A stretch of DNA of 40,633 nt, taken from UHGV virus genome UHGV-0140992. One strand, given 5' to 3'. Source of the DNA: a virus. The notes beneath the pieces were generated by a model, which saw nothing but the letters and a program-made list of their open reading frames with translations, ran no database searches and was not told the DNA's origin. The position numbers were made by a program, and so were the translations under genes. Each line of letters opens with the position of its first letter. Within the stretch, counting starts at the first letter, position 1. This document shows positions 1-31,623 of the stretch, in pieces.

Positions 1-1427
1 AAGCACCAGTCAACAATGCTGTGCTTCTGAAAAAGATGATTGGCAAGGATAGTAAGGTCGTTCCCCTGATAGCCGTCAACATCGAATGAGTAGGCCAGAT
101 CACGGACAACACTGCCTTTCTCCTGGACGAACAGAGCAATATTCGCCACGGCAATTGGTGGGACATTGCTCGAGCCATTTGATCCCTGAGAGCTGAATGC
201 AAATGATGATGGGGTAAGCACTTTGTTCTGGTCGCCAGTGATGACGTACTCACCTCCGGAAGTCAGCGCCACCAGCGAACCAACATCAATCAGGTGACGG
301 ATCTCATTAACCTGACGCCCGGCATAGGTGTAGATAATTCTGTCGTCATCCTGCGTAGGATTGCTTTTGCCAAAATCCTTATAATCCCCAGTACGGCTGG
401 CCCAGATAGTCTGAGGGAACGCAGTCGATGCGGCGAAGTAAAGACGCTGTTGATAATAAACAACAGTGCCAGGATAACCATTAACACTGTTCCAGGCATA
501 TTTAGCCCATTTATAGCTGGCATTATCCTCGCCAACGACCTGCGAAGGGATATAGGAAATCACCTCGGCAGTTGCAGTAGTGCCATTTGCAGCAGTGATA
601 CGGGCAATGCCAAAACCACTGTGCAGATACTCCCACTCAATGCCAGTATCATCATCACCGGATCCGCCCCAGCCATCCCATGATGTGCCTTCTGTATGCG
701 AAGGGCGCAAAGTACCTGTTTTGCCTGCTGTAACGGCGCGATAGTAGTTACTGTCTGCACGGCGAATATCGCCAATCGACGTACTCTTACTGGTTTCCCA
801 TACAGGTACTGAATCCACTGCAGGCTGTTCCAGATAGAACAATTTGCCTACCTGCTCCGCGCCAAAAATAGAGACGCTTGCCGTTAACGTAATTGTCCCG
901 GTGCTGGCGCTGGCATAAACCGTCACTGACTCATCAATATTGATATCTTCAAATGGCCCGTTCTTCGTTACCACATCAACCAGTTGCCAGTTGTCATGCG
1001 CATAGCGACGCAACTCTTTCGGCGGGTATGCCGGATGAACAAGCGTAAGCACGTCTGCGCTTTGCGTGAATTTAATTCGGAACAGATCGGCTTCAGTATA
1101 TGGCGTGGCAATTTCATAAATAACATTGCTGCTGTTCAGCACCAACGCACCATCTTTGATAACGCGCATGTACTGGTGTCCGAACTCCAGAGCATAGGTC
1201 TGAACCGTCGAGAACTGGAACGGGATCAGGCGGCATTTCCGATTTGGGTATTTGGCGGCACCGACAAAACGCGTACCAGGTCGATTCTCAACGCCGCCAT
1301 ACTGCCGCACGATAAAGTTATCGCACTTGCGCAATGCCACCTGGTACTTCGCCATGTCGATACGTCCGTACAACGACGGTCCAATCTCACCACCAGCAAA
1401 GCTGGGCTGGATCCAACTGATAGCCAT
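1..1427 (-). CDS. tail tubular protein B-like (T7 gp12-like), N-terminal ~475 codons; gene runs off the window start and resumes in frame at the window end
   Basis: ATG at 1427-1425 overlaps the upstream stop (ATGA); manual minus-strand translation 1427->3 is stop-free (MAISWIQPSFAGGEIGPSLYGRIDMAKYQ...); N-terminus resembles T7 gp12; follows a gp11-like gene. Confidence 0.55.
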   Translation of the reverse strand, partial: MAISWIQPSFAGGEIGPSLYGRIDMAKYQVALRKCDNFIVRQYGGVENRPGTRFVGAAKYPNRKCRLIPFQFSTVQTYALEFGHQYMRVIKDGALVLNSSNVIYEIATPYTEADLFRIKFTQSADVLTLVHPAYPPKELRRYAHDNWQLVDVVTKNGPFEDINIDESVTVYASASTGTITLTASVSIFGAEQVGKLFYLEQPAVDSVPVWETSKSTSIGDIRRADSNYYRAVTAGKTGTLRPSHTEGTSWDGWGGSGDDDTGIEWEYLHSGFGIARITAANGTTATAEVISYIPSQVVGEDNASYKWAKYAWNSVNGYPGTVVYYQQRLYFAASTAFPQTIWASRTGDYKDFGKSNPTQDDDRIIYTYAGRQVNEIRHLIDVGSLVALTSGGEYVITGDQNKVLTPSSFAFSSQGSNGSSNVPPIAVANIALFVQEKGSVVRDLAYSFDVDGYQGNDLTILANHLFQKHSIVDWC

Positions 1428-2751: not shown

Positions 2752-3189
2752 TTAACCAGTTACTTTTGAGCGGATCGGATACGGCGTATTGGCATCAACA
2801 TCAAGACTGATACCAGCAGTGAATTCGCCAGCCGTTAGTGGGCCAGTTGCGACGGAGTAGTTAACACGCAGATATCGCTGAACACCGGCAGGCACCTTTG
2901 CAGAAACAACTCGTTTACCTGCTGTCAGGGCGGTCTTTGCCAGTGCGCCACTATCATAAATAGTGGTCCATGATCTGTTATTCTCACTCGTCTGCAACTG
3001 GATGTTTACAGTTGCATCACCGCTTGCTGCGGCGGCTGTGTTAACCAGCGCCCAAAACTCAAGCGGGTAACCCACGCCGATATCACGACGTTTTCCGTCA
3101 ATTGGACCGAGATCGATTACGTCAGTAGAAGCCGCGGTATTCGTAACCGCCTGAGCTTCGGAGAACATCAACAGTTTGTCGGTGATCAT
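2752..3189 (-). CDS. hypothetical capsid-associated protein, 145 aa
   Basis: ORF track; immediately downstream of the major capsid gene. Confidence 0.4.
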   Translation of the reverse strand: MITDKLLMFSEAQAVTNTAASTDVIDLGPIDGKRRDIGVGYPLEFWALVNTAAAASGDATVNIQLQTSENNRSWTTIYDSGALAKTALTAGKRVVSAKVPAGVQRYLRVNYSVATGPLTAGEFTAGISLDVDANTPYPIRSKVTG

Positions 3190-7223: not shown

Positions 7224-7238
7224 TTACCTTTCAGGTAA
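7224..7238. promoter_or_regulatory. TTACCTTTCAGGTAA, operator-type inverted repeat (TTACC-N5-GGTAA family)
   Basis: perfect 5-bp half-sites; same 15-mer recurs at 28399; TTGACA hexamer about 20 bp upstream. Confidence 0.45.
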
Positions 7239-7560: not shown

Positions 7561-7637
7561 GTGGCATTAGCTCAGTTGGACAGAGCAACCGCCTTCTAAG
7601 CGGTTGGTCGCAGGTTCGAATCCTGCATGCCACGCCA
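7561..7637 (+). tRNA. tRNA-Arg (anticodon TCT)
   Basis: cloverleaf folded by hand: acceptor GTGGCAT/ATGCCAC, D-arm GCTC..GAGC, anticodon stem ACCGC/GCGGT with loop CTTCTAA, T-arm GCAGG-TTCGAAT-CCTGC, discriminator G plus CCA; close to E. coli argU. Confidence 0.85.
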
Positions 7638-8174: not shown

Positions 8175-8186
8175 GTGACATGTCAC
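8175..8186. repeat. perfect palindrome GTGACATGTCAC, copy 1 of 3
   Basis: exact 12-mer shared with 10440 and 31612; intergenic. Confidence 0.6.
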
Positions 8187-9736: not shown

Positions 9737-10329
9737 TGATTACCATCCTGACGTTCTTTGAGTCGCTTCCTGGCTGCTGCTATGCGATCAGCAATTGTCA
9801 CATTCACATTAACATCCAGACGTTCTTTGAACGCGTTGACATCAACATGCTTACCAATCAGCTCAAGGTTCTTCACCTTGTCAGGCCATTTAATTTTTTT
9901 GAGGATTGTCTCTATCGAATCCTCGTTCATGTTCATGATGGTCGATGACAGATCAAAGCCACTAAGCGTAGTGCGCCAGATTTTCGGCCACTCACGGATT
10001 GGTTTAAGGCTCCCATCGTCGTTGAGGATGTCGATCACGTCCATCTGGTCGATCTCCACCAGGCGCATGAGAACGTAATCAGCACTGACGCGCATTCGTT
10101 TGTTGCGCTCCTCCATCAACTCGGCAATCCGTTTTTGAATGCGTTCATCGCGCATCATGACACTGGCTTTAACTGCCGCTGTATTTGGGGAGAATCCTGC
10201 GTTAATCGCTGCCTGAGTCTGGTTTTCAGGCGTTTTGATGTATGACTGGCAATAAGCCTCCTGCATTGCTGTTAGTGGCTTAAATTGCGTTGATTTGCGT
10301 TTATAGGTTTTAGGTTCAGCAGGCATCAT
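9733..10329 (-). CDS. terminase small subunit (track ORF to 10407; likely start MMPAEPK near 10329)
   Basis: basic/helical protein immediately upstream of TerL; the N-terminal extension in the track is encoded by a DNA tandem repeat. Confidence 0.65.
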   Translation of the reverse strand: MMPAEPKTYKRKSTQFKPLTAMQEAYCQSYIKTPENQTQAAINAGFSPNTAAVKASVMMRDERIQKRIAELMEERNKRMRVSADYVLMRLVEIDQMDVIDILNDDGSLKPIREWPKIWRTTLSGFDLSSTIMNMNEDSIETILKKIKWPDKVKNLELIGKHVDVNAFKERLDVNVNVTIADRIAAARKRLKERQDGNQ

Positions 10330-10336
10330 AACCACC

Positions 10337-10365
10337 GTGGTAATAGTTACCGTTGTGGTAATAGT
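10337..10365. promoter_or_regulatory. tandem GTGGTAATAGT repeat containing operator-type site TTACCGTTGTGGTAA (10347..10361)
   Basis: two 11-bp direct repeats 18 bp apart just upstream of the terminase operon; perfect TTACC-N5-GGTAA. Confidence 0.45.
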
Positions 10366-10439: not shown

Positions 10440-10451
10440 GTGACATGTCAC
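10440..10451. repeat. perfect palindrome GTGACATGTCAC, copy 2 of 3
   Basis: exact 12-mer; overlaps the stop of the 115-aa ORF, upstream of the terminase operon. Confidence 0.6.
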
Positions 10452-14417: not shown

Positions 14418-14494
14418 TTACCTCTAAGGTAATTGAAAACCATATAAGACACGAAATCAATAGAGTTTAGAATATTTTGTTACCTTGTAGGTAA
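14418..14494. promoter_or_regulatory. two operator-type sites TTACCTCTAAGGTAA (14418..14432) and TTACCTTGTAGGTAA (14480..14494)
   Basis: perfect half-sites, 62 bp apart, between the P-like gene end and the DUF1064 gene start. Confidence 0.45.
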
Positions 14495-16303: not shown

Positions 16304-16403
16304 TTTTTCCGCCCCTTTTTGTTATTGATATTGACTATTTTGCACAATTGGAAAATTTGATCAACCAGATTTGGTTTTTTATTACCCTTAAGGTGCGAAT
16401 AGA

Positions 16404-16430
16404 TATGAAAAGACCGCCGGATGGCGGTCT
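16404..16430 (-). terminator. intrinsic terminator after the Cro-like gene (tR1-like position)
   Basis: agaccgcc-ggat-ggcggtct 8-bp stem with TTTT on the minus strand. Confidence 0.5.
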
Positions 16431-16451: not shown

Positions 16452-16682
16452 TCATGAGTAGAAGAAGTATGCCAGTTCTGCTTTTGAGCGCAGCCATTGT
16501 CTTGTTTTACAGGCTTTAAAAAGCCCATTCATCAATACTTTACCTGGCATTTTGCGCTTGCCTGTTAAGTGAGTCTGGATATAGTGACTCGTCGTTCCGG
16601 CTTCCTGTGCGAAGGCTTCACGCTCATCCGGAGTAAGTGCAAGCCAGTGCTTTTTGAAATCGAAATGTCCGTTATCGCTCAT
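16452..16682 (-). CDS. Cro-like regulator, 76 aa
   Basis: small protein transcribed divergently from the repressor across the operator cluster. Confidence 0.55.
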   Translation of the reverse strand: MSDNGHFDFKKHWLALTPDEREAFAQEAGTTSHYIQTHLTGKRKMPGKVLMNGLFKACKTRQWLRSKAELAYFFYS

Positions 16683-16718
16683 AGCTATTGCCTGATATTT
16701 ATTTCAGATAATAAATAT

Positions 16719-16781
16719 TCACCCATAAGGTAACAAAAATCAAGGATAGTTACCTATGAGGTGCATTTACCTGTTGGGTAA
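16719..16781. promoter_or_regulatory. OR-like operator cluster: TCACCCATAAGGTAA (16719), TTACCTATGAGGTGC (16750), TTACCTGTTGGGTAA (16767)
   Basis: three 15-bp inverted repeats at 31- and 17-bp spacing between divergent Cro-like and CI-like genes. Confidence 0.6.
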
Positions 16782-16836
16782 TATTGCTTTAAATTGAATC
16801 ATCTACTGATTCATATATGAGGCGATTTTCCAGAAA

Positions 16837-17421
16837 ATGAAAAGTATCCAGGACGTCCGCAGGCAAAATCTCAACGACTTGATCGACCGTGAATTCAATG
16901 GTGTTCAGACGCGGATGGCAGAAAAACTTGGAACTCAGGCAAATCTGGTAAACCGCTGGGCTCTTGGCAAGAAGGTTATCGGCGACCAGGTTGCACGAAA
17001 AATTGAAGCTGCCGCCAATAAACCCCGTAACTGGCTTGATATTGATCGTTCGCTTTCTCAGGAGGGTTTTCAGCCTGTCGGCCCGAGCGATATAGGTCAG
17101 CTGGCGGCTCACAACCTGGAACGCTGGATGAGCGAAAGCCGCGACCTTTCAACACAGGGAAAACTTCACCGCGCATCCGGCGTCGCCCAGGTGACAATCA
17201 GCCGCCTGTTAAACAATGAGGTCAGCGTTTCCATTTCCACCCTGGAGAATGTTGCATCCGCATTCGGGCGTCACGGATATGAACTACTGATTCACCCGCA
17301 CGACCCTGCGACTATCAACTATGACCGCTCACGCTACGCATTGTTACCCGAAACCGAGAAAGCAAAGATCGAAAGTTACATTGAATTTGTCATCAACCAG
17401 AACGAAAAAAGCAAACAATAA
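16837..17421 (+). CDS. CI-like immunity repressor, 194 aa, two HTH-like segments, no S24 peptidase domain
   Basis: divergent from the Cro-like gene across the operators; HTH-type N-terminus; no Ala-Gly / GDSM / Lys autocleavage motifs seen. Confidence 0.7.
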   Translation: MKSIQDVRRQNLNDLIDREFNGVQTRMAEKLGTQANLVNRWALGKKVIGDQVARKIEAAANKPRNWLDIDRSLSQEGFQPVGPSDIGQLAAHNLERWMSESRDLSTQGKLHRASGVAQVTISRLLNNEVSVSISTLENVASAFGRHGYELLIHPHDPATINYDRSRYALLPETEKAKIESYIEFVINQNEKSKQ

Positions 17422-17442
17422 AACTATAGTTTTCAGTAAGTA

Positions 17443-17467
17443 AGCCGCCTCATGGCGGCTTTTTTAT
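17443..17467 (+). terminator. intrinsic terminator of the repressor gene
   Basis: agccgcc-tcat-ggcggct followed by TTTTTTATT. Confidence 0.6.
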
Positions 17468-17478
17468 TGCCAGATAGA

Positions 17479-17555
17479 TTACCTTACGGGTAATTTTTTT
17501 AACTCATATCTATTGACACCAAACCAAATAAGCATAATTATTACCCCAACGGTAA
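17479..17555. promoter_or_regulatory. OL-like operators TTACCTTACGGGTAA (17479) and TTACCCCAACGGTAA (17541) around a TTGACA hexamer
   Basis: two perfect sites flanking TTGACA at 17513, upstream of the plus-strand operon. Confidence 0.55.
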
Positions 17556-17574
17556 CAGACCGAGGTAACAAGTT

Positions 17575-17727
17575 ATGCAGTGGAAAATCATCAACGGTTG
17601 GTACTGCGTTACTGCATGCGGATTCATGAGCTGGAAGTTCCGCACCTTACAGGAAGGCATTAAGTGGGCTTTCGTCAGCAAAGAAGCTCGCGATGTAGCC
17701 AACGATAACGAGATATGGGAGGGCTGA
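17575..17727 (+). CDS. possible small protein, 50 aa (MQWKIINGWYCVTACGF...)
   Basis: GAGGT RBS; stop overlaps the next start (TGATAATG); below the ORF-track length cutoff. Confidence 0.3.
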   Translation: MQWKIINGWYCVTACGFMSWKFRTLQEGIKWAFVSKEARDVANDNEIWEG

Positions 17728-18934: not shown

Positions 18935-19957
18935 ATGTCTATCAATGCACTTAAGGCAGCGGCTACCGGTAACCAAGTTGCACATCATAATGAGAAACCA
19001 ACAACTCTGGCCGGACTTCTGGCAGACCCAAAAATTAAAGCTCAGATGGCTTTGGCACTTCCAAAGCACATGACAGCAGACCGTCTGGCGCGCATAGCAA
19101 CCACAGAGATCAGAAAGGTTCCAAAACTTGCATCATGCGACCAAGCCAGCTTCCTGGGGGCAATTATGCAATGTGCCCAATTGGGTCTTGAACCAGGCGG
19201 AGCTCTTGGACACGCTTACCTGATACCGTTCGACAAACGCCAGAAAGTAAATGGAAGATGGGAAACCGTATCTACAGAAGCACAGCTGATTATCGGCTAT
19301 CGCGGAATGATTGACCTTGCCCGCCGCTCTGGGCAGATCCTGAGTATCTCGGCTCGTACCGTACATACAAACGACAAATTCAGCTACTCATACGGCCTGG
19401 AAGAAACGCTCGAGCATTTACCTTGCGAAACAGGTGACCGCGGAGAATTAACGCACGTTTACGCCGTTGCACGACTGAAAGATGGCGGAGTCCAATTTGA
19501 AGTTATGAGCCGGGCAGACGTTGAGAAAGTTCGTGCACTGAGCAAAGCCGGTAGCAGTGGCCCATGGGTTGATCACTTCGATGAGATGGCTAAAAAAACA
19601 GTAATTCGCCGACTGTTCAAATATCTTCCTGTTTCTATTGAAATGCAGAAGGCTGTTGTTATGGATGAGCGCGCTGAAGCTGGACTTAGCCAAGATAACG
19701 CAGCTGTTATCACTGGTGAATATTCCGTAGTTGACGATGAGCGTCAACACCTGTCGCCAATTTCAGATTCAGAACGAGAAGAAGCTCGAGAATATATCAT
19801 CGCGATACTTAATAGCCTGGATCCATCTGCTGAAGATGCAAAAACGATGTTCAAGCGCGCTGAAAATGAAATTAACACCATGGCTGAAAAGCTCGGTGAT
19901 GAATATCACCAAAAATTCATGATGACGCTTAACGATATGCGTCCAGAATTCGAGTAA
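18935..19957 (+). CDS. recT: RecT-family single-strand annealing protein, 340 aa
   Basis: RecT-like motifs (GLEPGGALGHAYLIPF); classic exonuclease-RecT pair. Confidence 0.85.
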   Translation: MSINALKAAATGNQVAHHNEKPTTLAGLLADPKIKAQMALALPKHMTADRLARIATTEIRKVPKLASCDQASFLGAIMQCAQLGLEPGGALGHAYLIPFDKRQKVNGRWETVSTEAQLIIGYRGMIDLARRSGQILSISARTVHTNDKFSYSYGLEETLEHLPCETGDRGELTHVYAVARLKDGGVQFEVMSRADVEKVRALSKAGSSGPWVDHFDEMAKKTVIRRLFKYLPVSIEMQKAVVMDERAEAGLSQDNAAVITGEYSVVDDERQHLSPISDSEREEAREYIIAILNSLDPSAEDAKTMFKRAENEINTMAEKLGDEYHQKFMMTLNDMRPEFE

Positions 19958-22795: not shown

Positions 22796-22810
22796 ATACC
22801 TTTAAGGTAA
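22796..22810. promoter_or_regulatory. operator-type site ATACCTTTAAGGTAA (one mismatch)
   Basis: about 45 bp upstream of the integrase start. Confidence 0.4.
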
Positions 22811-24477: not shown

Positions 24478-24868
24478 CGTCTTTTCTCCCCGGAATTAAC
24501 TCGCGTGGATTATCGGAACGGTGATAGAGCCATATACCAATACGCACAGCGACAATTGCTGACACGAATGCGCCTGCAGAGAAAACAATCCCTTTTTCAA
24601 AAGAGTCCTGCGTGATGGTAGGGATCAGGCTGGCTATGCCGATAAGAATTGATGCTGCTGGTTTGTAAAAGAGAAGGCCGCAAAGAAAGCTGAGCATCGA
24701 CAGGAGCACCCGGCGACGGATGGGGTACTCTACTGCAGAGGTAACAAAAATTACCGCCCCAGCCAAAGCCCCTAAAGCAACCTCCGGAGGGGCACCTGCA
24801 ATAACCGCAGCAAGAGAACTAAAACTAAGCAACTGATTTAATTGCTCACTTGTTACTTGAGCAGACAT
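24464..24868 (-). CDS. holin-like membrane protein, 134 aa
   Basis: multiple hydrophobic helices; first gene of the lysis cassette. Confidence 0.45.
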   Translation of the reverse strand: MSAQVTSEQLNQLLSFSSLAAVIAGAPPEVALGALAGAVIFVTSAVEYPIRRRVLLSMLSFLCGLLFYKPAASILIGIASLIPTITQDSFEKGIVFSAGAFVSAIVAVRIGIWLYHRSDNPRELIPGRKDDGNA

Positions 24869-28398: not shown

Positions 28399-28413
28399 TT
28401 ACCTTTCAGGTAA
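28399..28413. promoter_or_regulatory. operator-type site TTACCTTTCAGGTAA
   Basis: identical 15-mer to 7224; in the divergent region between tailspike and the LexA-box gene. Confidence 0.45.
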
Positions 28414-28450: not shown

Positions 28451-28470
28451 TACTGTATAAATATACAGTT
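28451..28470. promoter_or_regulatory. LexA (SOS) box TACTGTATAAATATACAGTT
   Basis: 18 of 20 match to consensus TACTGTATATATATACAGTA, intact CTGT-N8-ACAG, overlaps a TATAAAT -10-like element about 20 bp before the downstream ATG. Confidence 0.65.
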
Positions 28471-28489: not shown

Positions 28490-28747
28490 ATGCAGCAGTA
28501 TCACTATCCACTGGAAGACGGATTTACCGAAAGGATTCACACGCCGGGAGGCGTCAGGTCACTGGTGGAGGGATCGCACTTGATGAAATTACTCCGGGAT
28601 CTCGATAAGGATGGATTTAATGTCGATGGCCCACTTGCCGAACTGACTGCACTGATTAACTACGTCACCAGCTCACAGATGTCTATGCAGGATCTGCAAA
28701 CACATCTCGACTATTGTGCCGAACAATTACGAAAACAAACCCGGTAA
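28490..28747 (+). CDS. small antirepressor-like protein, 85 aa (track 28472 is TTG; ATG at 28490)
   Basis: GGAGAAG RBS; LexA box and operator upstream; about 45 percent identical by eye to the C-terminal domain of the Bro-N protein at 29896..30606. Confidence 0.55.
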   Translation: MQQYHYPLEDGFTERIHTPGGVRSLVEGSHLMKLLRDLDKDGFNVDGPLAELTALINYVTSSQMSMQDLQTHLDYCAEQLRKQTR

Positions 28748-28769: not shown

Positions 28770-29498
28770 CTATCGTTTCGCTTTGTGCTCGTCCCAGCAC
28801 GTTTTGCACCATGCCATTAAGCCGTCCGCATTTTGATTATTAGGGTAAAAGCTGGTCCGTTTTCTGCGGACATTACAAATTGGGCACCACTTCATATGGC
28901 GTGTATTCTTTGGGCCATCGAGACACCTTGCACACCACTTAGTCAATCCATCTGGATTTTTTGACGATTTCCGGAATTTGTCATATGGAAGGTTTATTCT
29001 GCATCGCAAACACTGCTTGCGGCCACTTGAAACTCTGTTAGCTGATTCTTCTTTTGGCGGCGATACAGAAGGTATTCTTGCTGGCTCTGATACTGCCTGA
29101 GGTGCTTTTTTAGATGACTGAGACGATATGTCATCACCAGGGAATCTTCCATGATATGCCGGACGCATTGATACTCCAGGTGGAAGCTCAGCTGTAAACG
29201 GCTTTGGCTGAATCAGTTGCCTCTCTTTTGCTAACTCCTGCTGTTTACAATATGTCTGGATTACCGCACTATCATAAGCAGGAGGTGCGGAAATATTAGG
29301 CGCATTACCTCCAGTTTTTTGAAACTGAGTAGAGGTGTGTTCTATCACCTGTGTACGATTAATCGTTATCTCCCCATCTTCGGTCTTTATCGTTTTGTTA
29401 TGATTAACGACCGTACGATCAGAGATCTTAGTCTTGTTCTGGTTGATAACGTAAATAATCACCGCAACCACACCAACAACTATCCAGAAAACTTCCAT
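28770..29498 (-). CDS. membrane-anchored protein with duplicated CxxC zinc-ribbon module, 242 aa
   Basis: N-terminal TM helix; two copies of CxxC-x(20)-DGL-xx-WC-xx-C; GAGGAA RBS. Confidence 0.5.
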   Translation of the reverse strand: MEVFWIVVGVVAVIIYVINQNKTKISDRTVVNHNKTIKTEDGEITINRTQVIEHTSTQFQKTGGNAPNISAPPAYDSAVIQTYCKQQELAKERQLIQPKPFTAELPPGVSMRPAYHGRFPGDDISSQSSKKAPQAVSEPARIPSVSPPKEESANRVSSGRKQCLRCRINLPYDKFRKSSKNPDGLTKWCARCLDGPKNTRHMKWCPICNVRRKRTSFYPNNQNADGLMAWCKTCWDEHKAKR

Positions 29499-29518: not shown

Positions 29519-29626
29519 TTACCTTAAAGGTAATATCTTGCTTTCAGGTGATCAAGCGTTAAACGCCACCAACCAAATACGGTTGATTTTGATATTTCTC
29601 CGCGTTTATCATTACCTTTGCGGTAA
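29519..29626. promoter_or_regulatory. operator-type sites TTACCTTAAAGGTAA (29519..29533) and TTACCTTTGCGGTAA (29612..29626)
   Basis: perfect half-sites between the divergent 242-aa gene and the Bro-N gene. Confidence 0.45.
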
Positions 29627-29639
29627 ATTTACATCGCAC

Positions 29640-29880
29640 TCCTCTTGTGCCATAGTAATCGGGCACTGGCAAAATCCAGTGCCGGGATTGGCGTCCCGGG
29701 TTACTAAGTGGCGCATACCACGCCAGACGTGGTTTTTTTATGCGTTAAGCACAGCTATATCCGAATTATGGTGGGCTGGGCAGGGGTCCGAAAGGACGCC
29801 GGTACCACTTAGGCCGGTACGCCAACCTTGTCCAGTTCACCACCAGTAATTGGCGTTGCGGTGGTGATTAAAATCACTAA
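29640..29880 (+). other. highly structured non-coding leader upstream of the Bro-N gene
   Basis: nested inverted repeats GGCACTGG-caaaat-CCAGTGCC and CCGGGA-ttggcg-TCCCGG; CCACG-ccaga-CGTGG followed by TTTTTTTA; direct repeat GCCGGTAC. Confidence 0.3.
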
Positions 29881-29895
29881 GTGGAGATAACCACC

Positions 29896-30606
29896 ATGGC
29901 TAATGCTCAAACTTCCATCTTCAAATTTGAATCTGTTAACCCTATCCGTTCCATCATTATCGATGGCCAACCATGGTTTGTAGCCCAAGACGTTTGTAGT
30001 GCGCTGCGTATCCAAAACGTCACCCAAGCACTTGAAAAACTGGATGATGATGAAAGGTCTATGTTCAACATAGGGCATGAACATCGTGCAATTTTTGACA
30101 GCCGAGTAAAAGAGATCAACATCATCTCCGAGTCAGGCCTCTACACACTGATCCTCCGCTGCCGCGACGCAGTGACACCAGGCACTATCCCCTACCGCTT
30201 TCGTAAATGGGTTACGGGTGAGGTTCTTCCTCAGATCCGCCGCACCGGAAGCTACATTAAAAACTCGCTCCCGCAGGAAGAACGCATAAAGATGGTTGCC
30301 GACCAGGTGGCCAACGCCACGGCGTCAGCAGTAATGCAGGCGATGAAGATAGAGAACAAAACCTACAGCGCCCCACTGAATCCCGGCTACCGCAGCCTGA
30401 TTCATTCGCCGTCTGGTGTTCTCGGCCTGACGGAGAACTCACTGCTGATGAATCTGCTGAACCAGTTACAGGACGACGGGCACGACGTATCGGGCGCGGC
30501 GGCGGAGCTGACCACCATGTTCTGCTACATCGTCGGTGTGAGCAAATGCCTGCGTGATATCCAGACCCACGCGGAATACATCAACGACAAGGCAGGGTTC
30601 TTCTGA
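29896..30606 (+). CDS. Bro-N domain antirepressor-like protein, 236 aa (ATG at 29896)
   Basis: N-terminal Bro-N-type motifs (FKFESVNPIRSIIIDGQPWFVAQDVCSAL); C-terminal domain paralogous to the 28490 gene. Confidence 0.65.
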   Translation: MANAQTSIFKFESVNPIRSIIIDGQPWFVAQDVCSALRIQNVTQALEKLDDDERSMFNIGHEHRAIFDSRVKEINIISESGLYTLILRCRDAVTPGTIPYRFRKWVTGEVLPQIRRTGSYIKNSLPQEERIKMVADQVANATASAVMQAMKIENKTYSAPLNPGYRSLIHSPSGVLGLTENSLLMNLLNQLQDDGHDVSGAAAELTTMFCYIVGVSKCLRDIQTHAEYINDKAGFF

Positions 30607-30678: not shown

Positions 30679-30693
30679 TTACCTTAAAGGTAA
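30679..30693. promoter_or_regulatory. operator-type site TTACCTTAAAGGTAA
   Basis: identical to 29519; immediately before AGGAGG and the ATG at 30706. Confidence 0.45.
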
Positions 30694-30705
30694 AGGAGGC
30701 GCGAT

Positions 30706-30873
30706 ATGACAGCGTTGAAAAATCGTACTCAGCACAATGAACAAGCCAAGCAATGCTGGGATGTCATTGGAAAAGTTATGCTTGGCCGCGCAAGCAAAGA
30801 GCGCGACAAGGATATGGTTTACCAGACAGGAACATCTTTCAGCGACTTCAAGGCGGCATTTCGCTCCAAATAG
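30706..30873 (+). CDS. possible small protein, 55 aa (MTALKNRTQHNEQAKQCWDVIGKVMLGRASK...)
   Basis: AGGAGG RBS 6 nt upstream; operator directly upstream; below the ORF-track cutoff. Confidence 0.4.
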   Translation: MTALKNRTQHNEQAKQCWDVIGKVMLGRASKERDKDMVYQTGTSFSDFKAAFRSK

Positions 30874-30893
30874 AAGCACATCAGGAGTTTTCC

Positions 30894-31334
30894 TTGAAGT
30901 TTAACATTAGAATATCTAATAGTTTTCTACATGGGGAAAGCAACACCCCTTTCGCTGTAGACGGACCTTTCCTTACTGATGATGAAATAAAAATCATACA
31001 AAGTTTTTTAGAGGATGTTGCCAATGGAAGGGCGCTTGTTGGAAAAAACAAGCCCTCGTGGGTTGATGATAACCATGATAAAATTCCCGGCTCAGACAAT
31101 TATGAGCAAGAGAATTATTGGCATTATCATTGTGGGCCAACATGGTATCCAAACACATTTAAGAATTATACCATTAACTTAAATTTCAACCCTGGCGGAA
31201 GGCATTCTAATGAATGCATTCATTATGCAAAAAATGATAATGAAATTGTCATTGTTGGATTTTCAAGAGAACACATACCTTTCCTTTCATCAGATGGAAA
31301 CAACAATCCGCTTTTTAATGATGAAGAAGAATAG
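30894..31334 (+). CDS. hypothetical AT-rich moron protein, about 146 aa (TTG start; track ORF begins 30753)
   Basis: AGGAG RBS 7 nt before in-frame TTG; markedly AT-rich codons versus flanks; acidic C-terminus. Confidence 0.4.
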   Translation: MKFNIRISNSFLHGESNTPFAVDGPFLTDDEIKIIQSFLEDVANGRALVGKNKPSWVDDNHDKIPGSDNYEQENYWHYHCGPTWYPNTFKNYTINLNFNPGGRHSNECIHYAKNDNEIVIVGFSREHIPFLSSDGNNNPLFNDEEE

Positions 31335-31611: not shown

Positions 31612-31623
31612 GTGACATGTCAC
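31612..31623. repeat. perfect palindrome GTGACATGTCAC, copy 3 of 3
   Basis: exact 12-mer between the small hydrophobic ORF stop and the hairpin. Confidence 0.6.

What the first reader, a model, noticed from the sequence alone, without database searches (positions are those of the whole stretch)
16683..17574. Lambda-like immunity switch built from a two-HTH, apparently non-cleavable repressor
Divergent Cro-like (minus) and CI-like (plus) genes flank three TTACC-N5-GGTAA-type sites. The repressor gene has its own terminator and is followed by a second operator pair around a TTGACA hexamer driving the recombination operon, mirroring lambda cI / OL-pL. The repressor has two HTH-like segments and no obvious peptidase or dimerisation domain of the LexA/CI type.
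Basis: partly seen in the sequence, partly recalled or inferred. Interest (0 to 1): 0.6.

Follow-up and report, generated by a model that had tools for sequence, protein, structure and literature searches.

The report
Known Rep–Ant phage immunity switch
This is the ordinary lysis/lysogeny control region of a phiV10/epsilon15-type E. coli phage, whose non-cleavable repressor is switched off by a small SOS-controlled antirepressor encoded 11 kb away; the system has already been solved structurally in a sister phage, so it is real but not new.

Summary
Divergent Cro-like and repressor genes flank three TTACC-N5-GGTAA sites. The repressor gene has its own terminator. A second operator pair brackets a TTGACA-17-AATTAT promoter. 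The 194-aa repressor has two HTH-like segments and no S24 peptidase.

It is a known system. The window is a Uetakevirus (phiV10/epsilon15-like) genome, 97-98% identical here to deposited phages. The repressor is a full-length homologue of Salmonella phage SPC32H Rep (PDB 5D50, E=3.5e-42). The window also encodes SPC32H's small antirepressor Ant (88% identical) behind a LexA box.

In SPC32H Rep only the N-terminal HTH binds DNA. The second "HTH" is a dimerisation domain, and the C-terminal tail tetramerises and binds Ant.

The same palindrome occurs 11 times exactly in the window (0.05 expected), at syntenic intergenic sites in epsilon15, SPC32H and Tyrion. Seven of these are already annotated as repressor sites in the epsilon15 RefSeq record.

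ZX5's near-identical repressor has been tested by overexpression, and the region is in about 10% of complete E. coli genomes.

The less-described parts are the conserved 62-bp operator brackets and a second, Rep-operator-gated isrK/C4-RNA plus Bro-N::Ant-like module.

The parts
16452..16682 (-). Cro-like gene (76 aa), first gene of the early-right operon
   Evidence: ORF. PHROG 35 'transcriptional repressor', E=5.6e-13. The single-sequence AF2 model (pLDDT 81.6) is five-helical; its best PDB fold neighbours are YdaS, the 434 repressor DNA-binding domain and C-proteins, at TM about 0.6 but E about 1. Syntenic with eps15 gp39 and SPC32H_042.
16411..16430 (-). Terminator hairpin after the cro-like gene
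   Evidence: annotated in phiV10.
16708..16736 (-). Candidate P_R: TTGTTA -17- TATTAT
   Evidence: Consensus scan, 9/12; inferred only.
16719..16733 (.). O_R1, TCACCCATAAGGTAA (1 mismatch); lies across the -35 and spacer of candidate P_R
   Evidence: The TCACC half-site is conserved at the same place in eps15, SPC32H and Tyrion.
16750..16764 (.). O_R2, TTACCTATGAGGTGC (2 mismatches)
   Evidence: Exact site at the same offset in eps15 and SPC32H.
16767..16781 (.). O_R3, exact palindrome next to the rep promoter region
16837..17421 (+). rep: 194-aa non-cleavable repressor. N-terminal HTH DNA-binding domain (about 1-73), middle HTH-like dimerisation domain (about 89-150), C-terminal tetramerisation/Ant-binding tail (about 150-190).
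   Evidence: 5D50_A E=3.5e-42 over residues 1-190; 5D4Z_A E=3.6e-20 over 89-190. 44% identity to SPC32H Rep. Pfam. Domain names from PMC9986798.
17442..17469 (+). rep terminator (8-bp GC-rich stem plus T-run)
   Evidence: annotated in phiV10.
17479..17493 (.). O_L distal operator (exact)
17513..17541 (+). P_L-like promoter TTGACA -17- AATTAT for the early-left (recombination/xis/methylase) operon
   Evidence: 10/12. The design is conserved in eps15 and Tyrion.
17541..17555 (.). O_L proximal operator (exact); starts on the last base of the -10 hexamer and covers the expected start site; 62 bp from the distal site
28451..28470 (.). LexA (SOS) box TACTGTATAAATATACAGTT in front of ant
   Evidence: The only match in the window with up to 3 mismatches to the 20-bp consensus; 0 in shuffles. 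CTGT-N8-ACAG is conserved upstream of the ant homologue in eps15, SPC32H, Tyrion, ZX5 and phiV10.
28490..28747 (+). ant: 85-aa small antirepressor
   Evidence: 5D50_E 'Anti-repressor protein', E=4.1e-47. 75/85 identical to SPC32H Ant. Same position as SPC32H ant, between the virion genes and the tailspike.
28399..28413 (.). Rep operator (exact) between the tail-fibre gene and ant
   Evidence: Syntenic site annotated 'repressor' in eps15 at 19895..19911.
14418..14494 (-). Second 62-bp operator bracket (14480-14494 and 14418-14432) around TTGATT-17-TTCAAT, ahead of the post-replication operon
   Evidence: Same spacing and design in eps15, Tyrion and SPC32H.
10329..10361 (.). Operator pair (exact plus 1 mismatch, 18 bp apart) directly upstream of the small terminase gene
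   Evidence: Annotated 'repressor' in eps15 at 12..27.
7224..7238 (.). Single operator upstream of the gp3/portal/head operon
   Evidence: eps15 2931..2947 is annotated 'repressor'.
22796..22810 (.). 1-mismatch site 43 bp upstream of int
   Evidence: The same 1-mismatch site is present in eps15, Tyrion and SPC32H.
16382..16396 (.). Possible weak operator (2 mismatches) just after the cro terminator, ahead of the gp40/replication genes
   Evidence: A syntenic degenerate site is present in eps15 and Tyrion. Weakest of the set.
29519..29626 (.). Two exact operators (29519-29533 and 29612-29626, 93 bp apart) flanking a divergent promoter region. The right one abuts the -10 of TTGATT-18-TATCAT.
29663..30606 (+). 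Second antirepressor module: isrK-like RNA (29663-29739), C4 antisense RNA (29764-29847), Bro-N::Ant-like fusion protein (29881..30606)
   Evidence: Rfam 67.7 and 66 bits. Bro-N E=1e-19. The C-terminal 74 aa are 42% identical to Ant. 81% identical to ZX5 ORF4 anti-repressor.
30679..30693 (.). Exact operator directly upstream of the SD/ATG of a 55-aa ORF (30706..30873)

Best explanation
The region is the primary immunity region of a phiV10/epsilon15-type temperate podovirus (Uetakevirus). It works as the SPC32H-type Rep/Ant antirepression switch.

Repression:
- Rep (194 aa) has an N-terminal HTH DNA-binding domain, a middle HTH-like dimerisation domain and a C-terminal tetramerisation tail.
- As a tetramer it binds ATTACC-N5-GGTAAT palindromes through pairs of N-terminal domains.
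- At O_R, one imperfect site sits across the -35 and spacer of the cro-side promoter, and two sites sit next to the rep promoter.
- At O_L, two sites 62 bp apart bracket the early-left promoter. The proximal one covers the -10/+1 junction.
- The same operator guards further transcription units: the post-replication operon, terS, the head operon, the tailspike/ant region, int and an accessory module. Rep therefore holds the whole prophage silent directly.

Induction:
- Rep is not cut by RecA.
- DNA damage removes LexA from the SOS box in front of ant, 11 kb away.
- The 85-aa Ant binds Rep's C-terminal part, breaks the tetramer and releases it from DNA.
- The Cro-like protein then presumably shuts off rep.

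Basis of each step:
- Shown by sequence here: the genes, sites, LexA box, terminators and homologies.
- Shown experimentally only in relatives: tetramer binding and Ant action (SPC32H); repressor and Bro-N antirepressor overexpression effects (ZX5).
- Inferred: promoter assignments, occupancy of each scattered site, and the Cro role.
For: Identity of the phage:
- 97-98% nucleotide identity to HEMP4, ZX5, TL-2011b and phiV10 across the region and most of the window.

Rep:
- Matches PDB 5D50 chain A ('Repressor', phage SPC32H) end to end, E=3.5e-42, and the C-terminal construct 5D4Z, E=3.6e-20.
- 44% identity overall. The tetramer-interface residues F187 and F190 of SPC32H Rep align to Y181 and F184.
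- No S24 peptidase.
- Domain plan and tetrameric binding to palindromic sites come from secondary accounts of Kim et al. 2016 (PMC9638917; PMC9986798).

Ant:
- E=4.1e-47 to 5D50 chain E and 88% identical.
- A unique LexA box lies 19 bp upstream of its start codon and is conserved in five relatives.
- Its position is syntenic with the named rep and ant genes of SPC32H.
- LexA-controlled Ant as the induction route is cited for Kim and Ryu 2013 in PMC7380047.

Operators:
- 11 exact copies against 0.047 expected, and only at spacing 5.
- Same motif and same layout in eps15, Tyrion and SPC32H.
- Seven eps15 copies are annotated 'protein_bind: repressor' in NC_004775.2.
- The recognition-helix segment NLVNRW of the N-terminal HTH is invariant across Reps that are 43% identical and share this operator. 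The second HTH is only 29% identical in the equivalent segment.

Experiments in relatives:
- Overexpressing ZX5 ORF21, the repressor annotated under the 97.8%-identical DNA match, abolished free phage and cut lysis-gene transcripts by more than 99.9% (PMC9782041).
- phiV10-species prophages are induced 21-47-fold by a DNA-damaging microcin (bioRxiv 10.64898/2026.05.26.727859).
Against: - There are no binding or induction data for this exact phage.
- Rep is only 44% identical to the crystallised homologue (C-terminal part about 40%) while Ant is 88% identical. Whether this Ant fits this Rep allele is assumed, not shown.
- A single-sequence AlphaFold model of Rep failed (pLDDT 45). The three-domain plan therefore rests on sequence alignment.
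- Sigma-70 matches next to several scattered operators are weak. Their role could be promoter occlusion, roadblock or something else.
- The rep promoter could not be placed with confidence.
- The best operator match lies on the rep side and the imperfect one on the cro-side promoter. This is the opposite of lambda and is unexplained.
- I could not read the two primary SPC32H papers or the epsilon15 genome paper.
Confidence: 0.88

Rival explanations
1. Both HTH domains of one Rep chain contact DNA, as in a POU-type or tandem-HTH binder. A monomer, or a simple dimer, would then read the operator with four reading heads. This is the stronger reading of the first reader's 'two-HTH' title.
For: Pfam finds two HTH_3-like stretches, and the second is the better match (E=1.2e-9).
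Against: - The operator is a perfect palindrome with identical 5-6 bp half-sites. That calls for two copies of one reading head.
- The two halves of Rep show no similarity to each other.
- Among Reps that share the operator, the first HTH's recognition segment NLVNRW is invariant. The second HTH's equivalent segment is 29% identical.
- In SPC32H Rep the second domain is described as a dimerisation domain.
Confidence: 0.05
2. The TTACC-N5-GGTAA palindromes, at least the scattered ones outside O_R and O_L, are sites for another phage regulator rather than for Rep. Candidates are the Cro-like protein, the PerC-like activator or the N15 gp46-like regulator.
For: - Several scattered sites lack a convincing sigma-70 promoter nearby and sit before late genes that would be expected to need an activator.
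- No binding data for these sites could be consulted.
- In lambda, Cro shares CI's operators, so shared use is likely anyway.
Against: - The sites have the same sequence as those flanking rep itself.
- The 14418/14480 pair copies the O_L bracket design base for base in spacing.
- The eps15 RefSeq curators annotate them as repressor sites.
- Window-specific accessory genes carry them too, in the same -10-abutting position as at P_L.
Confidence: 0.07
3. Classical lambda-type induction. Rep is inactivated by RecA-stimulated self-cleavage despite lacking a recognisable S24 domain, and Ant is accessory.
For: Uetakevirus prophages are induced by DNA damage. That result does not by itself distinguish the two routes.
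Against: - No S24 hit even at E<=1.
- Full-length homology to a repressor crystallised in complex with its antirepressor.
- A conserved LexA box lies on ant.
- A review attributes induction to LexA-controlled Ant.
Confidence: 0.02

Closest known systems
Rep/Ant antirepression system of Salmonella phage SPC32H (Kim and Ryu 2013, J Virol; Kim et al. 2016, PNAS; PDB 5D4Z, 5D50)
   Same: - Same phage genus and same gene order.
- Rep is homologous end to end.
- Ant is 88% identical.
- A LexA box precedes ant.
- Same operator palindrome in the same layout, including the O_R triple and the 62-bp pairs.
   Different: - This Rep allele is only 44% identical.
- O_L has two sites here against three in SPC32H and eps15.
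- The window and its phiV10, ZX5 and Tyrion relatives add a second antirepressor module (isrK and C4 RNAs plus a Bro-N::Ant-like fusion) that SPC32H and eps15 lack.
Repressors of phiV10 (PhiV10p40), vB_EcoP_ZX5 (ORF21) and epsilon15 (gp38)
   Same: - 97-98% nucleotide identity to phiV10 and ZX5 over the region.
- phiV10's annotation already notes two HTH motifs.
- ZX5 ORF21 and ORF4 were tested by overexpression.
- The eps15 RefSeq record annotates the scattered operators.
   Different: Essentially nothing for phiV10 and ZX5. eps15 gp38 is the SPC32H-type allele, 43% identical.
Phage lambda cI / cro / O_R / O_L switch
   Same: - Divergent repressor and cro-like genes share a tripartite operator.
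- A separate operator-controlled early-left promoter reads in the same direction as the repressor gene.
- A recombination operon lies on the left and replication genes on the right.
   Different: - No S24 autocleavage domain.
- Induction is by antirepressor.
- The repressor acts as a tetramer with a different oligomerisation apparatus.
- Operators also sit in front of late, int and accessory genes.
- The promoter-proximal O_R site is the imperfect one.
LexA-controlled antirepressors of non-cleavable repressors: coliphage 186 Tum and Salmonella Gifsy/Fels-2 antirepressors (Lemire et al. 2011)
   Same: The logic is the same: the SOS signal is read by LexA on a small antirepressor gene, not by the repressor.
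   Different: The proteins are unrelated. I recall Kim and Ryu 2013 describing Ant as structurally distinct from the Sipho- and Myoviridae antirepressors, but the paper could not be read here. No Pfam or NCBIfam family covers Ant.
P1/P7 immI module (c4 antisense RNA controlling ant) and Salmonella IsrK
   Same: Rfam C4 and isrK RNAs lie immediately upstream of a Bro-N antirepressor-type gene.
   Different: Here the module sits behind a Rep operator, and its protein carries a C-terminal domain homologous to the small Ant. This applies to the neighbouring module, not to the finding itself.

Membership tests
SPC32H-type Rep/Ant antirepression system | Repressor homologous over its full length to SPC32H Rep (DNA-binding, middle dimerisation and C-terminal tetramerisation domains) | tested here: met
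   5D50_A E=3.5e-42, query residues 1-190 against chain residues 2-197; 5D4Z_A E=3.6e-20. 85/192 identical.
SPC32H-type Rep/Ant antirepression system | Hydrophobic tetramer interface in the C-terminal helix (Phe187 and Phe190 in SPC32H Rep) | tested here: met
   They align to Tyr181 and Phe184. S180, I182, F184 and V185 are invariant in the four-sequence alignment. This is a sequence-level test only.
SPC32H-type Rep/Ant antirepression system | Small (about 86 aa) Ant protein encoded in the same genome | tested here: met
   28490..28747; 5D50_E E=4.1e-47; 75/85 identical.
SPC32H-type Rep/Ant antirepression system | ant preceded by a LexA box | tested here: met
   TACTGTATAAATATACAGTT at 28451-28470; unique in the window; 0 in shuffles. 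Conserved in relatives.
SPC32H-type Rep/Ant antirepression system | Palindromic operators flanking rep, shared with SPC32H | tested here: met
   Same motif, spacings 17/30-31 and 62, in SPC32H and in the window.
SPC32H-type Rep/Ant antirepression system | Rep binds DNA as a tetramer, is not cleaved on SOS induction, and is released by Ant | not testable with these tools
   Needs EMSA/SEC, a western blot after mitomycin C, and an Ant titration.
SPC32H-type Rep/Ant antirepression system | Predicted fold of this Rep matches 5D50/5D4Z | tested here: inconclusive
   The single-sequence AlphaFold model had pLDDT 44.9 and was unusable.
Lambda CI / LexA-type autocleaving repressors | C-terminal S24 peptidase domain with a Ser-Lys dyad and an Ala-Gly cleavage site | tested here: not met
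   No Peptidase_S24 match at E<=1. The sequence has no Ala-Gly dipeptide. The C-terminal half matches 5D4Z instead.
Lambda CI / LexA-type autocleaving repressors | N-terminal HTH domain binding palindromic operators shared with a divergent cro | tested here: met
   HTH hits on residues 1-76. Operators lie between the divergent genes. Binding itself was not tested.
Tandem-HTH (POU-like) DNA binders | Two different HTH units of one chain each reading a different sub-site | tested here: not met
   The operator half-sites are identical. The second HTH is not conserved among Reps sharing the operator. It is described as a dimerisation domain in the homologue.
Cro-type lytic repressor (for the 76-aa neighbour) | Small HTH protein, first gene of the early-right operon, divergent from the repressor | tested here: inconclusive
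   Position and size fit. PHROG 35, E=5.6e-13. Fold neighbours are YdaS, 434 repressor and C-proteins at TM about 0.6, but all at E about 1 or worse. No PDB, Pfam or NCBIfam sequence hit.

The most novel reading that the evidence does not exclude
In the phiV10-type branch, Rep would not be only a local switch. It would be a genome-wide direct repressor whose tetramer geometry is matched to conserved 62-bp operator brackets around promoters.

It would also repress a second antirepressor of its own. This is a Bro-N::Ant-like fusion sitting behind an exact Rep operator and behind isrK and C4 RNAs.

Induction would then be two-tiered. LexA-gated small Ant triggers it. The Rep- and RNA-gated fusion locks it in as a positive-feedback loop.

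I found no paper among those I could search or read that describes this circuit. Its parts are individually annotated.
Probability: 0.3. Interest if true: 0.4.

Novelty: already known. Interest (0 to 1): 0.15.

Why it matters
The finding adds little on its own. The repressor family, its antirepressor, its SOS control and its structure are published, and near-identical phages are deposited and partly tested.

Its practical value is for annotation:
- About 10% of complete E. coli genomes carry this region labelled only 'helix-turn-helix domain-containing protein'.
- The small Ant is still 'unknown function' in PHROGs (phrog_450).
- Naming them Rep and Ant predicts that these prophages are SOS-inducible without repressor cleavage.

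The operator map may be useful to anyone studying how a tetrameric repressor silences a whole prophage. It has 11 exact and about 5 near copies, with two promoter brackets of identical 62-bp design.

Tried and rejected
- **Papers not held.** The epsilon15 genome paper (Kropinski 2007) and both primary SPC32H papers could not be read. I used secondary accounts in PMC9638917, PMC9986798 and PMC7380047, and say so where I rely on memory.
- **AlphaFold on Rep.** The single-sequence model had pLDDT 44.9 and was useless, so no fold search was run on it.
- **Internal duplication in Rep.** BLASTP of the N-terminal half against the C-terminal half found no alignment. The two HTH-like parts are not recent duplicates.
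- **Cro-like protein.** There is no PDB, Pfam or NCBIfam sequence hit. The fold search gives only non-significant HTH neighbours. 'Cro-like' therefore remains an inference from position, size and a PHROG hit.
- **Promoters at the scattered operators.** My own sigma-70 scan gives only weak matches at 7224, 10347, 22796, 28399 and 30679. I could not place the rep promoter convincingly.
- **Operator before the lysis cassette.** I looked for one, as eps15 has at 24704. None is present in the window.
- **PADLOC on the accessory proteins next to the extra operators.** No hits.
- **Other readings of the palindromes.** I considered N15-like dispersed partition sites and terminator stems. I rejected both: the sites are identical to those flanking rep, abut -10 hexamers, and the 5-bp stems are too weak.
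Full report
**1. Observation**

The finding's coordinates hold.
- A 76-aa ORF lies on the minus strand (16452..16682). A 194-aa ORF lies on the plus strand (16837..17421). They diverge from a 154-bp spacer.
- The spacer contains TCACCCATAAGGTAA (16719, 1 mismatch), TTACCTATGAGGTGC (16750, 2 mismatches) and TTACCTGTTGGGTAA (16767, exact).
- After the 194-aa gene comes an 8-bp GC-rich hairpin with a T-run (17442-17469).
- Next is an exact site (17479), then TTGACA-17-AATTAT (17513-17541, 10/12, the best promoter match in the region), then a second exact site (17541) that starts on the last base of the -10 hexamer.
- The first gene of the recombination operon follows at 17575.

The motif is far beyond chance.
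- There are 11 exact copies in 40.6 kb, against 0.047 expected from 2000 shuffles.
- Copies occur only at spacing 5 among spacings 0-11.

**2. What the window is**

- The region is 97-98% identical to Escherichia phages HEMP4, vB_EcoP_ZX5, TL-2011b and phiV10, and about 77% identical to Enterobacter phage Tyrion.
- The rest of the window matches the same phages. The window is therefore a Uetakevirus (epsilon15/phiV10-like podovirus) genome.
- phiV10's record already calls the gene 'putative transcriptional repressor; two helix-turn-helix motifs' and annotates the same terminators.
- The region occurs at 95% identity or more in 539 of 5426 complete E. coli genomes.

**3. The repressor**

- Pfam gives HTH_3 in two stretches (best 106-147) and a sub-threshold YdaS-type HTH at 21-61. 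There is no S24 peptidase hit at E<=1.
- Against the PDB, the protein matches chain A of 5D50 ('Repressor', Salmonella phage SPC32H) from residue 1 to 190, E=3.5e-42. It also matches the C-terminal construct 5D4Z, E=3.6e-20. Identity is 85/192.
- Secondary accounts of Kim et al. 2016 describe SPC32H Rep as follows (PMC9638917; PMC9986798):
  - It has an N-terminal DNA-binding domain, a middle dimerisation domain and a C-terminal tetramerisation/Ant-binding domain.
  - Phe187 and Phe190 form the tetramer interface.
  - It binds palindromic DNA as a tetramer in which each DNA-binding pair comes from different dimers.
- In the window's Rep these two residues align to Tyr181 and Phe184.
- Three observations made here agree with that:
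  - The two halves of Rep are not similar to each other.
  - The operator half-sites are identical.
  - Among Reps that are only 43% identical yet share the operator, the segment NLVNRW in the first HTH is invariant. The equivalent segment of the second HTH is 29% identical.

**4. The induction route**

- At 28490..28747 the window encodes an 85-aa protein that matches 5D50 chain E ('Anti-repressor protein') at E=4.1e-47 and is 75/85 identical to SPC32H Ant.
- Nineteen bases upstream lies TACTGTATAAATATACAGTT. It is the only match in the window to the LexA-box consensus, with none in shuffles.
- A CTGT-N8-ACAG box sits in front of the ant homologue in epsilon15, SPC32H, Tyrion, ZX5 and phiV10.
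- The SPC32H record names rep and ant at the syntenic positions.
- A review attributes SOS induction by a LexA-controlled antirepressor to Kim and Ryu 2013 (PMC7380047).
- My own recollection of that paper's abstract, which I could not read here, is that SPC32H Rep is not cleaved and that a point mutation in the LexA box makes the phage constitutively lytic.
- A 2026 preprint reports 21-47-fold induction of phiV10-species prophages by a DNA-damaging microcin.
- Overexpressing ZX5 ORF21, the repressor annotated under the 97.8%-identical DNA match, abolished free phage and reduced endolysin and holin transcripts by more than 99.9%. Overexpressing ZX5's ORF4 'anti-repressor' lowered lysogeny (PMC9782041).

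**5. The operators are genome-wide and conserved**

Besides O_R and O_L, exact copies lie at these positions:
- 7224, upstream of the gp3/portal/head operon.
- 10347, with a 1-mismatch partner at 10329, directly before terS.
- 14418 and 14480, after the replication genes.
- 28399, between the tail fibre gene and ant.
- 29519, 29612 and 30679, in an accessory region.

A 1-mismatch copy precedes int (22796). A 2-mismatch copy follows the cro terminator (16382).

Epsilon15, SPC32H and Tyrion carry the same motif at the same places with the same spacings:
- O_R triple at 17 and 30-31 bp.
- O_L pair at 62 bp.
- Post-replication pair at 62 bp.
- terS pair at 18 bp.

The epsilon15 RefSeq record NC_004775.2 already annotates seven of them as 'protein_bind: repressor, lysogeny'.

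The two 62-bp pairs share one design. It runs: distal operator, about 19 bp, a TTGAxx -35, a 17-bp spacer, a -10 whose last T is the first T of the proximal operator, then SD and ATG. This fits a tetramer holding two palindromes on the same face of the helix, since 62 bp is about 5.9 turns. That fit is inference.

At O_R, the imperfect TCACC site lies across the -35 and spacer of the only reasonable cro-side promoter (TTGTTA-17-TATTAT, 9/12). I could not place the rep promoter with confidence.

**6. The Cro-like gene**

- Position, size and a PHROG hit (phrog_35 'transcriptional repressor', E=5.6e-13) fit a Cro-type protein.
- A single-sequence AlphaFold model (pLDDT 81.6) is five-helical.
- Its nearest solved folds are YdaS of prophage CP-933P, the 434 repressor DNA-binding domain and C-proteins, at TM about 0.6. 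All are at E about 1, so this is consistent but not proof.

**7. Comparison and verdict**

- The layout is lambda-like. The mechanism is that of the SPC32H Rep/Ant system, and every sequence-testable defining feature of that system is met.
- The defining feature of lambda CI/LexA-type repressors, the S24 autocleavage domain, is tested and not met.
- The thing is already known: near-identical phages are deposited and annotated, one was tested, and the family has crystal structures.

**8. What might still be new**

- The window, ZX5, phiV10 and Tyrion carry a second module. SPC32H and epsilon15 do not.
- The module runs: exact Rep operator abutting a TTGATT-18-TATCAT promoter, isrK-like RNA, C4 antisense RNA, then a Bro-N protein.
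- The last 74 residues of that protein are 42% identical to Ant. The whole protein is 81% identical to ZX5 ORF4.
- Rep would then repress an antirepressor of its own, giving a possible feed-forward lock on induction.
- Ant is 88% identical to SPC32H Ant while Rep's C-terminal part is about 40% identical. That leaves open which antirepressor is this Rep allele's main partner.
- These points are untested inferences and are scored separately as the novel case.

Noticed in passing
window 29663-30606 (also L002 8778-9757, L003 9168-10033, L005 20417-21407): An isrK-like RNA (29663-29739) and a C4 antisense RNA (29764-29847) lie upstream of a Bro-N protein. That protein's C-terminal 74 aa are 42% identical to the small Ant. 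An exact Rep operator sits about 37 bp before isrK in all four phiV10-type phages. The module is absent from epsilon15 and SPC32H. It could form a Rep-repressed second antirepressor loop.
   Followed up: partly
window 8175-8186, 10440-10451, 31612-31623 (L004 2142, 19517, 39612; L005 2702, 20377; L006 2145, 19634, 38629): A second conserved motif: the 12-bp perfect palindrome GTGACATGTCAC occurs three times per genome at syntenic operon ends. At about half of the sites it abuts a GC-rich terminator hairpin. It is not a Rep operator and its function is unknown.
   Followed up: partly
window 14418-14494 and 17479-17555: Two promoter 'brackets' have identical design, with operators exactly 62 bp apart and the -10 hexamer overlapping the proximal operator by one base. 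The design is conserved in epsilon15, SPC32H and Tyrion. The proximal operator's GAGGTAA half at 14418 doubles as the Shine-Dalgarno of the next gene.
   Followed up: partly
window 28490-28747 versus 16837-17421: Ant is 88% identical to SPC32H Ant, but Rep is only 44% identical (C-terminal, Ant-binding part about 40%). This suggests mosaic exchange of the rep allele. It raises the question of whether the small Ant still fits it.
   Followed up: no
window 7561-7637 (+): tRNA-Arg (anticodon TCT) between the head operon promoter region and the terminase genes. It is also annotated in SPC32H and the O157 typing phages.
   Followed up: no
window 28770-29498 (-): A 242-aa protein (phrog_6762, unknown function) has an N-terminal hydrophobic segment and C-terminal Cys-rich zinc-ribbon-like repeats, with weak hits to endonuclease VII, Lar and Stc1. 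An exact Rep operator lies 6 nt upstream of its Shine-Dalgarno. There is no PADLOC hit.
   Followed up: partly
window 30679-30873: An exact Rep operator lies immediately before the AGGAGG/ATG of a 55-aa ORF (phrog_8607, unknown function). That ORF overlaps the longer 30753..31334 ORF (phrog_5954, unknown function).
   Followed up: no
window 22796-22810: A 1-mismatch operator lies 43 bp upstream of the integrase start codon and is conserved with the same mismatch in epsilon15, SPC32H and Tyrion. In epsilon15 the same bases are annotated as integrase and RNase III sites.
   Followed up: no
window 28490-28747: The Ant family is still labelled 'unknown function' in PHROGs v4 (phrog_450, phrog_15539). 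It has no Pfam or NCBIfam model, although SPC32H Ant is structurally characterised.
   Followed up: yes
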